This document shows, one piece after another, positions 24,001 to 27,000 of a DNA stretch of 64,000 nucleotides. Within the stretch, counting starts at the first letter, position 1. Each line of letters opens with the position of its first letter. The DNA is from Octopus vulgaris. Lineage: Eukaryota. The stretch spans positions 132,122,001 to 132,186,000 of the forward strand of contig OX597819.1 in assembly GCA_951406725.2 (NCBI GenBank), written 5' to 3'. The position numbers are program-made.

Positions 24001-27000
24001 TAAATTCTCTGCTGAGAATAATTTGATGCGATATTCTAATTCCATCAACAGATTCAGTTTTTCATTTGTTCCCCCTTTATATTTATGATAATTATTATTA
24101 ATTTTTTTTTTTTTTTGGTCAAATAAGGTTCTTAGTTTTATAACGAACATGAAAACAATGTTGTTGTTTTTCTGTAAGTATTAGGGTTAATAATTCCCAT
24201 GTTGTATATATTTCGATTGAACTTGATCTTCTAAGAACACTTGTCGACTGTTGCTGTATTAACATCTCAATTCCACAATCCAGTTATAAATGGCATTTTC
24301 AGTAATCATGAAACAATGTTTTTCCAGTTTTGAGAGCTTTTTCCAGATATTTTTAGTATGAAATTTTGTTTCTTTATTAGAAATGCTTGTCTCAGTTTTC
24401 TTTTCTGTTTGTTTCGTATTTGTGCTTCATATCTGCTTTTGTTTGAATTCAGTTTTTGTAGTAAAATTAGTTGATATCACATTGTTCCTTATGGTATATA
24501 TTTCATTTACTGCTACCTAACATAGTAGTAATTGGACACCTGAATTTGATTCAGTGAATGTTTGCTGTCACATGCTTTGTGTTTGCAGTAGATTCTTAGA
24601 TTTTGATCATCTGTTGAGTAGATTTAGCAGGATTTGTTTAAATGGTAGAGTTCTTTTGGAATGGTTCTGCTTAATTTGTTAGTTGCTTGCGATAAGTAGT
24701 TGTCGTAATCAGTTATGTAGAGGTAGGAAATGTTTCGTGTCCTATTCTCTAATTACTTTGTTTTCAACTGTTTTTATTTAGGAAACTCCACTGAAGATCC
24801 TAATGTTATAATTGAAACTGTTGAAGACAATGCTGACAATGAGAACAAAGGAACGCAGTCTCTTAAACCAACTCTTACAACCAAAAACCCGGTTATGTAT
24901 CTAAATGAATTGTTGCCCGAACCTTTGGTTTATGAACTGATGTCAGAATCTGGTCCTCCTCATGATAGGAATTTTGTCATGTCGGTAAAGGCTAATGACC
25001 AAACGGTGCAGGGGGCTGGTCGCAGCAAGAAACTTGCCAAGGCAGCGGCTGCCCAGGTAGCTTTGTTTAAGCTTTTCAACATCGTCTACATCTCAGAACC
25101 AGGTCAGTTGATCTAATTTCCCATCTACAGCCATACAATTCTTCACGAAAATTTAGATTTAGTTCATCAGAATCAAGCTACATCTAAAAGAATTTTTGTA
25201 ATAATCACCGATGTTGTCATTAGTCAACAATTATAAGGTCCAATGCTAACTGTTTGCTCCTCTGATCGGATCTTGTTTTTCTAGTTTCTTTTTATCGTTT
25301 TTGATGTTGTTTGTGTTTAATATCTTTTGTAGAACCAAATTTATTTGGTTGAATTGTGTTTCCTTTGTGTCATTGAAATAACATTTTAGGGTAAAAATTA
25401 GAAACTGGCATGTGACATTCAATAGCTCTGGTTAATCTTTCTTTTTTTTTTTTTGTGTGATATTTTCTGTTGATCGTTATTTTAAAATCAGGTTCTTCTT
25501 TTGGTATGCCTTTTGTTTTCCAAGTGTTGATATTTTTGTTGAATTGACTAAAATGTGTGTTGTGCTGTTGTCTTTCATAATCTATTGCTTAATTCTAAAA
25601 CTAAGTTTTGCTCATCTTGGTGTTGCTTACATAAACGCGTTGTTATAGAATTATAAAAAAAGAAATAGGCAGATTGGGTGGAGGATTTTCGGAATTCCTG
25701 TTTGTGAAGGAGCTTAAGCTGACCTGTTTGACACAATTTTGGTCTTAGCCCCTGTCCAAATACAAGAAATGTTTCATATTACATCAAATACTCTACAATC
25801 TGTGATGAACCATTCCATCTGAAGTTGTAGAAAACAATAGGAGAAATTTTAAACTGGAAAGACCCAACGGGGCCACTGAAAGGCCCGTTGCTTTTTTCCA
25901 TCTTTCACCTGGCTATTTATAATGTGTCTCATTAAAATATTTAATTAACATTGTTTATTTTCAGCTGATACTTGCATGTTTGTAATTAATATATTAAAAC
26001 TGCATTTTATTTAGATTTATTATTATTATTATTATTCTATAGTCTTCTCCATATTTTGTTGTTTGTTTTCCTGATTTGATTATAAGTTAATGTATTGTTA
26101 TTTCAAATATTTGCAGATATTAATCTTTCCAAAAAAGGCAAAAAATTCTAGAAGCAACAAAAGATTTTGAAATGTATTTTTGTTGGTAAAAACAAATATT
26201 GTATAACCTCTAAACATTTGAAATTAGTTTCTATTTAAAATTTCACCGAGGATCTTATAACTAATAACTTCATTCTTTATTTAGGAGCATAGAAACACTT
26301 TGTGGGTTTTCTTTTATTCTTTCTAAATCCTAAAATCACAAAAATCTTAACATTTTCCTTTGTTTGAAGGTGGCTTTCCCGTAAGAGATTCGTTTTTACA
26401 GCCTTAAAGTGTAGGGGAGATAACTGCCTACTCTGTATTCGAAATAAACTTTGTCTAGAGAAATAATTTTTTAACAGGATTTTTTATTTTCCGTACCAGG
26501 ATCTCTACCTGAAAATTTATAGCATTTGGAACAACAACAACAACAATAATAAATTTGTTTCTTTTAAGCAACAGCTATGATAAGAAAAAGAATGTTTAAA
26601 AAAATGAGTTTTTAGGTAAGCTGAAAATTAAACAACTTAATTTCTTCGTTCAAGACATTCCAACATTCTCAATAATCCAGTCTTTTTGTAAAGGAAATTA
26701 TTTTAGGCAGATACTGTGTAGTTTAAGGAAAACGGATTAACTGATCAATCAAATGTTGGATTTTAAAAAACTTTTTGAGTCCTTTTTTTCCCTGTTACTC
26801 TAACTTGCATTGCATGAAACTGTCAAGCATAACATTTTTGCTTTTCCGACTGCAAATTTTTTATTCTGCAACCCTGGCTGCTTTTAACTTTAATCAATGT
26901 TGTTTTGCTTTTATGTGGAGAAAATTTAGAATTTTTTTCTTTTTTCTCATTACCTTATTGTTTCACATTCCATCAAGTTAATTTCAGAATTGTAAGGCAC

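What the first reader, a model, noticed from the sequence alone, without database searches (positions are those of the whole stretch)
24782..25102. ADAR2 with a third dsRBD on a frame-symmetric cassette exon 33 kb upstream of the main dsRBD exon
Seen: a complete dsRBM on a 321-nt exon with phase 1 at both ends, so it can be included or skipped without a frameshift. Established: most ADAR2 proteins have two dsRBDs, while squid ADAR2a gains a third from an optional exon that raises its editing activity. Inference: this Octopus-like genome keeps the same switch between 2-dsRBD and 3-dsRBD isoforms, which is relevant to the extensive recoding seen in coleoids.
Basis: partly seen in the sequence, partly recalled or inferred. 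Interest (0 to 1): 0.8.

Follow-up and report, generated by a model that had tools for sequence, protein, structure and literature searches.

The report
Optional third dsRBD exon of octopus ADAR2
This is the octopus copy of the optional exon that gives the RNA-editing enzyme ADAR2 a third RNA-binding domain, a switch already shown in squid and already present in public octopus gene models, so it is real but not new.

Summary
Window 24782..25102 (+) is a 321-nt exon with an AG acceptor and a GT donor. It is open in one frame only, is phase 1 at both ends, and encodes a complete canonical dsRNA-binding domain. It lies 33,479 nt upstream of the two-dsRBD exon (58582..59343).

The interpretation also holds, but it is not new. 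The 106 encoded residues are identical to public Octopus sinensis / O. vulgaris ADAR2 models of 785 and 784 aa. Sister models of 678 and 677 aa have the same first exons and lack exactly these 107 codons. The cloned squid variants a and b differ at the same two junctions, and the squid gene structure is published (optional dsRBM = exon 2).

Three additions:
- Three alternative first coding exons lie inside the 33-kb intron. They give a second, promoter-based route to two-dsRBD forms.
- O. bimaculoides RefSeq annotates this exon as a separate 124/125-aa "spermatid perinuclear RNA-binding protein", most likely a split gene model.
- The 9 gastropod and bivalve ADAR2-like proteins examined also carry an N-terminal third dsRBD, and beetle and starfish ADAR2s have extra dsRBDs. 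A third dsRBD therefore cannot by itself explain coleoid recoding.

No read-level RNA evidence could be checked.

The parts
24762..24781 (+). 3' splice site of the cassette: pyrimidine-rich tract ending in AG
   Evidence: TTTCAACTGTTTTTATTTAG read directly.
24782..25102 (+). Cassette exon, 321 nt, phase 1 at both ends. It encodes an acidic, disordered linker of about 30 residues and then one complete dsRBD.
   Evidence: The translation is 106 of 106 residues identical to residues 16-121 of P0133 and 15-120 of P0124.
25103..25108 (+). 5' splice site GTCAGT. Without splicing the frame reads G-Q-L-I-stop.
   Evidence: The read-through tail GQLI is the C-terminus of the O. bimaculoides models P0343 and P0344.
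25103..58581 (+). Intron of 33,479 nt between the cassette and the two-dsRBD exon. It holds three alternative first coding exons and a 3-kb (TATG)n array.
33921..33933 (+). Coding part of alternative first exon C (M-R-P-Q plus 1 base), donor AAG|GTATTT
   Evidence: The leader of P0127 (668 aa) was found here. Letters.
53363..53474 (+). Coding part of alternative first exon D (37 codons plus 1 base), donor ATT|GTTAGT
   Evidence: Residues 1-37 of P0005 (701 aa, isoform X2) match at 100%. Letters.
57961..58069 (+). Coding part of alternative first exon E (36 codons plus 1 base), donor TTT|GTAATA
   Evidence: The leader of P0134 (700 aa, O. sinensis X3) was found here. Letters.
58582..59343 (+). 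Constitutive exon with the two canonical ADAR2 dsRBDs, 762 nt, phase 1 at both ends
   Evidence: tblastn with P0002 and P0005. Exact translation found in 8 of the 10 Octopus models tested. Donor CCTG|GTAAGT read.

Best explanation
The exon is the octopus orthologue of squid ADAR2 exon 2, the optional exon that adds an N-terminal third dsRNA-binding domain.

How the switch works. The exon is 321 nt long and phase 1 at both ends. The upstream first exon ends in the same base (G) as the cassette itself. The spliceosome can therefore join the first exon to the cassette (codon GGA, Gly) and the cassette to the main exon (GAC, Asp). It can also join the first exon straight to the main exon (again GAC, Asp). 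No frameshift results either way.

Expected products. Inclusion gives a protein of about 785 aa with three dsRBDs plus the deaminase. Skipping gives the canonical protein of about 678 aa with two dsRBDs.

Expected effect. The domain keeps all three canonical RNA-contact regions: Glu in helix 1, G-P-P-H in the beta1-beta2 loop, and KKLAK at the start of helix 2 (naming recalled). By homology with squid (92% identity in the domain), the long form should bind dsRNA more tightly, edit more strongly, and be more nuclear.

Shown here: exon anatomy, domain identity, and identity to public inclusion and skipping models.
Inferred: that both junctions are used in octopus tissues, and the biochemical effect.
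For: Anatomy.

Domain. Motif table: GxxH is kept in 3 of 3 coleoid N-terminal domains, and K[KR]xAK in all 14 extra domains.

Public models: names and accessions; sequences; exact matches. Two of the two first exons seen on long forms (leaders MRDLHISKMKDLSL and MAATSAMNMEVER) occur both with and without the cassette.

Squid.
- Variants a and b differ by 99 residues at the same L|G and P|E/D junctions.
- A transcript-sized contig (3,006 nt) encodes the cassette directly followed by the main exon (P0002).

Conservation between octopus and squid: 92.0% in the optional domain, 98.6% in dsRBD1 and 88.7% in dsRBD2. The optional exon is as constrained as the constitutive ones.
Against: No RNA reads were available. 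The octopus XP_ and CAI proteins are annotation-pipeline models.

The first exons that feed the cassette are not in the window, so the upstream junction could not be read from this DNA.

O. bimaculoides RefSeq does not join the cassette to the editase gene. It lists a 124/125-aa protein that ends by read-through of the donor, and an editase model of 645 aa that starts inside the main exon.

The cassette donor has C at +3 (GTCAGT), which departs from the recalled GTRAGT consensus. This fits regulated use but proves nothing.

The original squid papers (PMC2685509, PMC3366847) are not held. Their results are known to me only from titles and from what later papers say.
Confidence: 0.88

Rival explanations
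1. The 2-versus-3 dsRBD choice in octopus is made mainly by promoter or first-exon choice, not by cassette skipping. Transcripts that start at the far-upstream first exons would include the cassette. Transcripts that start at one of the three first exons inside the 33-kb intron cannot include it.
For: Three alternative first coding exons, at 33921, 53363 and 57961, lie downstream of the cassette. All end in phase 1 with GT donors. They belong to public models P0127, P0005 and P0134.

In the other molluscs examined, 5 of 6 short isoforms carry a different N-terminal leader and join just after the N-terminal dsRBD. One of 6 starts at an internal Met. None of the 6 keeps the long form's leader and skips only the domain.
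Against: Public octopus models P0125 and P0126 keep the far-upstream first exons and skip the cassette. Squid variant b does the same and was cloned from cDNA (PMC7192619). The two routes are not exclusive, and their relative use is unknown.
Confidence: 0.3
2. The exon also, or instead, ends a separate short transcript that encodes a stand-alone 124/125-aa dsRBD protein, as annotated in O. bimaculoides. The cause would be failure to use the donor at 25103 together with polyadenylation in the intron.
For: RefSeq O. bimaculoides XP_014776424.2 (124 aa) and XP_052824560.1 (125 aa) consist of a first exon, the cassette and G-Q-L-I-stop. That is exactly what the window gives on read-through. Both first exons appear in such models.
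Against: The same assembly's editase model is 5'-truncated (645 aa), which is the usual sign of one gene split into two models across a very long intron. O. sinensis, O. vulgaris and Argonauta models and squid cDNAs join the exons. An older model version ended differently (P0345), and that tail is not in this window. Read-through ORFs from unnamed contigs (P0192, P0194) also carry upstream or downstream intron sequence, so they may simply be genomic DNA.
Confidence: 0.1
3. The open frame is a decayed or chance dsRBD-like ORF that is not expressed.
For: None found. Listed only for completeness.
Against: The translation is 106 of 106 residues identical to public models. The domain is 92% identical between octopus and squid. 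Splice sites are intact and the domain is confidently folded.
Confidence: 0.01

Closest known systems
Squid sqADAR2a optional exon 2 (Doryteuthis opalescens variants a/b, ACO52474/ACO52475; D. pealeii gene structure in PMC10278661)
   Same: An N-terminal extra dsRBD sits on its own exon, between a short first coding exon and the exon carrying both canonical dsRBDs. The junction positions are the same (..SL|G.. and ..SEP|D/E..). The length is a multiple of three. Flanking introns are very long. The domain is 92% identical.
   Different: The octopus exon has 107 codons against 99 in squid. The extra 8 residues lie in the acidic linker before the domain (alignment). The downstream intron is 33.5 kb here against 40-65 kb reported for squid. 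Activity, salt resistance and localisation have been measured only in squid.
dsRBM2 of vertebrate ADAR2 (2l3j, 2b7v, 6vff, 9op3)
   Same: Same fold and same RNA-contact motifs. It is the best sequence match among solved structures: 62 bits to dsRBM2 against 42 bits to dsRBM1. This agrees with the published tree that groups the squid extra dsRBM with dsRBM2 (PMC10278661, section 17).
   Different: It is an additional copy at the N-terminus, encoded on a separate optional exon. It has G-P-P-H in the loop where dsRBM2-type domains have G-E-S-H.
N-terminal third dsRBD of gastropod and bivalve ADAR2-like proteins (Haliotis, Gigantopelta, Patella, pectinids, oysters, Mytilus)
   Same: Same position ahead of the two canonical dsRBDs. 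They share a tail of the form F-N-x-x-Y-x-P/S-D/E, and an intron follows close to the same point. KKxAK is kept.
   Different: Identity to the octopus domain is only 38-47%, below its 45-59% to dsRBD2-type domains. None of these 9 N-terminal domains keeps the loop His. Orthology is unresolved. Their short isoforms use other first exons or start at an internal Met, rather than skipping a cassette.

Membership tests
dsRNA-binding domain (Pfam PF00035 dsrm), canonical RNA-binding type | Significant match to the family profile | tested here: met
   E 3.1e-12, 47.3 bits, cut-off 23. PDB phmmer E 1e-29 to ADAR2 dsRBMs.
dsRNA-binding domain (Pfam PF00035 dsrm), canonical RNA-binding type | alpha-beta-beta-beta-alpha fold | tested here: met
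   The predicted model has H36-43, E49-56, E63-70, E73-79 and H82-98, with block-mean pLDDT of 90-96. Foldseek gives rmsd 1.0 A to 3p1x and 1.0-1.2 A to the dsRBD in 6vff and 9op3. This is a prediction, not a solved structure.
dsRNA-binding domain (Pfam PF00035 dsrm), canonical RNA-binding type | Three RNA-contact regions: Glu in helix 1, G-P-x-H loop, KKxAK at helix 2 (motif names recalled) | tested here: met
   L-N-E-L, G-P-P-H and K-K-L-A-K are all present. E42, K82, A85 and K86 are invariant in the 14-row alignment. Actual RNA binding was not tested.
ADAR2 (ADARB1-type editase) gene | Two canonical dsRBDs followed by an A_deamin domain in one protein | tested here: inconclusive
   The window holds the two-dsRBD exon. 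The deaminase exons lie beyond base 64000: there was no tblastn match for P0002 residues after about 327. Public models that contain this exon's exact translation do have A_deamin (P0133: E 2e-115).
sqADAR2a-type optional dsRBD exon | Extra dsRBD on its own exon, N-terminal to the two-dsRBD exon, with frame preserved on skipping | tested here: met
   Junctions are the same as in squid variants a and b. Published squid structure.
sqADAR2a-type optional dsRBD exon | Both inclusion and skipping transcripts exist in the animal | not testable with these tools
   Only annotation models could be seen: P0133 and P0124 against P0125 and P0126. No RNA-seq or cDNA for octopus was available.
sqADAR2a-type optional dsRBD exon | Inclusion raises RNA affinity and editing activity | not testable with these tools
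   Known for squid from papers. No octopus experiment was found in searches.

The most novel reading that the evidence does not exclude
Besides acting as a cassette, the exon serves as a terminal exon. When its slightly off-consensus donor (GTCAGT) is not used, the frame stops after four codons. The product would be a stand-alone 124/125-aa protein consisting of the first exon plus one canonical dsRBD, as modelled twice in O. bimaculoides RefSeq. Such a deaminase-less dsRBD could compete with ADARs for substrates and so tune editing. This would be a third output of the same locus, beside the 3-dsRBD and 2-dsRBD enzymes.
Probability: 0.1. Interest if true: 0.55.

Novelty: already known. Interest (0 to 1): 0.2.

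Why it matters
The optional third dsRBD is one of the few known structural peculiarities of cephalopod editing enzymes. It helps to know that octopus keeps the same exon, junctions and frame symmetry as squid, with 92% identity in the domain between octopus and squid. That argues the switch is functional and old. It also gives exact coordinates for junction-specific assays across tissues and temperatures.

Two side results bear on how the feature is discussed.
- An N-terminal third dsRBD is also present in every gastropod and bivalve ADAR2-like protein I examined. Extra dsRBDs also occur in beetle and starfish ADAR2s. A passage in the Discussion of PMC10278661 says many features of these genes appear unique to cephalopods and singles out the extra dsRBM. 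That wording fits the domain's presence poorly. What may be coleoid-specific is the cassette format and the retained loop histidine.
- Public annotation is inconsistent between octopus species. The gene is joined in O. sinensis and O. vulgaris and split into two genes in O. bimaculoides. This can mislead expression studies of ADAR2 isoforms.

Tried and rejected
A self-complementary structure (editing-site-complementary-sequence type) that might couple editing to splicing of the cassette: none of the 15 inverted-repeat pairs in 22500-27500 touches the exon.

Known RNA families in the whole window: 0 matches at gathering score.

The bacterial promoter/terminator scan around the exon was at chance level (9 found, 8.0 +/- 2.9 expected) and is not relevant to an animal gene.

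Looking beyond molluscs for the N-terminal domain with an oyster N-domain region query found only oysters (3 hits). The word index was too insensitive, so the result is uninformative.

The first word-index search with the exon alone among longer proteins found only 3 proteins. It missed the identical octopus models because they sit in a cluster whose representative is a skipping isoform.

The tail of the older O. bimaculoides model P0345 was not found in any of the six frames of the window.

First exons A and B were not found in the window.

Papers PMC2685509, PMC3366847 and PMC4795812 are not held.

Trees of 71-73 columns could not settle whether the coleoid extra dsRBD is orthologous to that of other molluscs.
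- In the 42-row tree all extra domains form one side of a branch with 85/90 support.
- In the 58-row tree the coleoid clade stands apart from a starred clade holding 10 of the 11 other mollusc extra domains.
- Neither constraint is rejected: p-AU 0.379 for coleoid extra plus dsRBD2, and p-AU 0.264 for all mollusc extras together.

No complex prediction was run because no binding claim is made.

Full report
WHAT IS IN THE SEQUENCE

The stretch 24782..25102 on the + strand is bounded by a pyrimidine-rich tract ending in AG (TTTCAACTGTTTTTATTTAG) and by a donor, CAG|GTCAGT. It is 321 nt long. Only the frame beginning at 24784 is open (106 codons plus one base). The other two frames carry 5 and 14 stops. 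The window contains no N.

The encoded peptide starts with about 30 acidic residues that are predicted to be disordered. A complete dsRNA-binding domain follows.
- Pfam dsrm scores E 3.1e-12.
- The best solved relative is rat ADAR2 dsRBM1+2 (2l3j, E 1e-29). Residues 30-101 align end to end with dsRBM2.
- An AlphaFold2 model built on a 14-row alignment gives helix, three strands and helix. Block-mean pLDDT is 90-96 over residues 31-100.
- Foldseek places the model on ILF3 dsRBD2 and on the dsRBD in human ADAR2-dsRNA complexes, at about 1 A rmsd and 57-58% identity.
- The three RNA-contact regions are present: Glu in helix 1, G-P-P-H loop, KKLAK. The motif names are recalled, not taken from a call.

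THE REST OF THE GENE IN THE WINDOW

tblastn with public ADAR2 proteins finds one further large exon, 58582..59343, which carries the two canonical dsRBDs. From the letters its donor is CCTG|GTAAGT. That makes it 762 nt, again phase 1 at both ends. The intron between the two exons is 33,479 nt. The deaminase exons lie beyond the window.

The cassette was searched alone and the other exons were located with public proteins.

IDENTITY WITH PUBLIC MODELS

A cluster look-up and the sequences show a family of Octopus sinensis / O. vulgaris 'double-stranded RNA-specific editase 1' isoforms.
- The cassette translation is present letter for letter in P0133 (785 aa) and P0124 (784 aa).
- The main-exon translation is present letter for letter in 8 of the 10 Octopus models tested. 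The two misses are the 645-aa models that start at an internal Met.
- P0125 (678 aa) and P0126 (677 aa) have the same two leaders as the long forms and then go straight into the main exon. The difference is exactly 107 codons.

So inclusion and skipping of this exon are both already annotated. These are pipeline models, and I saw no reads. The two far-upstream first exons are not in the window, so the intron upstream of the cassette is longer than 24.7 kb.

SQUID

The Doryteuthis opalescens variants a (786 aa) and b (687 aa) sit in the neighbouring cluster. They differ by 99 residues at the same two junctions. An unnamed transcript-sized contig (3,006 nt) encodes the cassette directly followed by the main exon (P0002).

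What I read in the papers:
- PMC10278661, sections 17 and 18 and passages. sqADAR2 has 5 coding exons. The optional first dsRBM is exon 2, dsRBM2 and dsRBM3 are exon 3, and the first three introns are 40-65 kb. The extra dsRBM raises affinity for RNA. In the authors' tree it groups with dsRBM2.
- PMC7192619, passages. It speaks of 'an optional exon'. On western blots, nerve and axoplasm samples held the 2b form only, while the 2a form was seen in somata. The discussion describes 2a as predominantly nuclear.
- The original 2009 and 2012 papers are not held. I know them only by title and citation.

Octopus-squid identity is 92.0% in the optional domain, 98.6% in dsRBD1 and 88.7% in dsRBD2. The octopus exon is 8 codons longer, and the extra codons lie in the linker.

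MECHANISM

Both the first exon and the cassette must end in G. The models read Gly at the first-exon/cassette junction (G+GA) and Asp at both junctions into the main exon (G+AC). Either splice choice therefore gives the same downstream frame and the same junction residue. By homology, the long form should bind dsRNA more tightly and edit more strongly. This step is inferred and was not tested for octopus.

(1) A second route to two-dsRBD forms. Three alternative first coding exons lie inside the 33-kb intron, at 33921-33933, 53363-53474 and 57961-58069. Each has an ATG, a GT donor and phase 1. They match public isoforms P0127, P0005 and P0134. Transcripts that start there cannot contain the cassette.

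(2) Inconsistent annotation in O. bimaculoides. An exhaustive HMMER search with the exon and a cluster look-up show that RefSeq lists the cassette under a separate gene, 'spermatid perinuclear RNA-binding protein' isoforms X1 and X2 (125 and 124 aa). Each consists of a first exon, the cassette and G-Q-L-I-stop, which is what read-through of the donor gives in this window. The editase model of the same species is 5'-truncated (645 aa). I read this as one gene split into two models across a very long intron. A real dsRBD-only transcript is not excluded.

(3) A third dsRBD is not peculiar to coleoids. The best 120 hits contained 12 named non-cephalopod mollusc clusters. I examined the 9 that covered 97% of the query, so they were chosen for covering the N-terminus. 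I left out 3 shorter ones (P0014, P0032, P0085).
- Pfam counts 3 or 4 dsrm stretches in 8 of the 9. Patella has 2 by Pfam and a third, divergent one by alignment and by my own HMM. That HMM was built from these same domains.
- The extra domain is collinear with the coleoid one and ends in a similar F-N-x-x-Y-x-P/S-D/E tail.
- None of these 9 N-terminal domains, and neither of the 2 further pectinid extra domains, keeps the loop His. All three coleoid domains keep it. All 14 keep K[KR]xAK.
- Short isoforms in 6 mollusc groups use a different leader (5 of 6) or an internal Met (1 of 6). None is a clean cassette skip.
- Beetle Adar proteins (3-5 dsRBDs) and a starfish ADAR2-like isoform (3) also have extra domains, which mostly look like lineage-specific duplicates.
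- PMC4323055 (passages) notes three-dsRB ADAR2s in some sponges or ctenophores.

Whether the coleoid domain is orthologous to that of other molluscs is unresolved. PMC6651903 (passages) classes lophotrochozoan ADAR2 as having two RNA-binding domains. Its domain figure is a supplement that I could not open.

In searches I found no paper stating that gastropod or bivalve ADAR2 shares the N-terminal third dsRBD. I also found none describing octopus ADAR2 isoforms. This covers the held library only.

VERDICT

The feature is already known: shown experimentally in squid and present in public octopus models. Its bearing on coleoid hyper-recoding is weaker than suggested, because a third dsRBD is widespread in molluscs.

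What stayed unchecked: read-level splicing in octopus, exon structure in other mollusc genomes, and the closed collections and supplements.

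Noticed in passing
window 46096-49176: A (TATG)n microsatellite array of about 790 copies (84% matches, 3.1 kb) lies in the middle of the 33-kb intron. It shows up as a GC trough (0.16) with extreme GC skew in the composition profile.
   Followed up: partly
window 3-368 (- strand): An ORF with the HTH_48 domain of Mos1/mariner transposases (E 1.6e-21). It is probably a mariner-type transposon remnant at the window's start. Other transposon-looking ORFs at 22.3-23.2 kb and 34.4-34.6 kb gave no Pfam match.
   Followed up: partly
window 24802-24804 (codon 7 of the cassette): The unnamed contig-derived ORF P0192 is identical to the window's stop-to-stop ORF, upstream intron sequence included, except for one Asn-to-Ser difference (AAT here). 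An A-to-G change would give that substitution. It could be a polymorphism, a sister species or RNA editing of unspliced pre-mRNA, and I could not tell which.
   Followed up: partly
public proteins P0343, P0344 and P0130 (O. bimaculoides), matching window 24782-25116 and 58582 onward: RefSeq O. bimaculoides names the cassette-bearing model 'spermatid perinuclear RNA-binding protein' and starts its editase model at an internal Met. This is probably one ADAR2 gene split into two models.
   Followed up: yes
public proteins P0007 and P0010 (Argopecten, Mizuhopecten): Scallop ADAR2-like proteins have four dsRBDs. A second extra domain is inserted between the N-terminal one and dsRBD1, and it groups with the mollusc N-terminal domains in the tree.
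   Followed up: partly
model of window 24784-25101, residues 30-32 and 100-102: The predicted structure pairs a short strand just before helix 1 with a short strand just after helix 2. This may be a small extension of the dsRBD made by the conserved T-T-K and I-V-Y flanks. It was not compared with solved extended dsRBDs.
   Followed up: no
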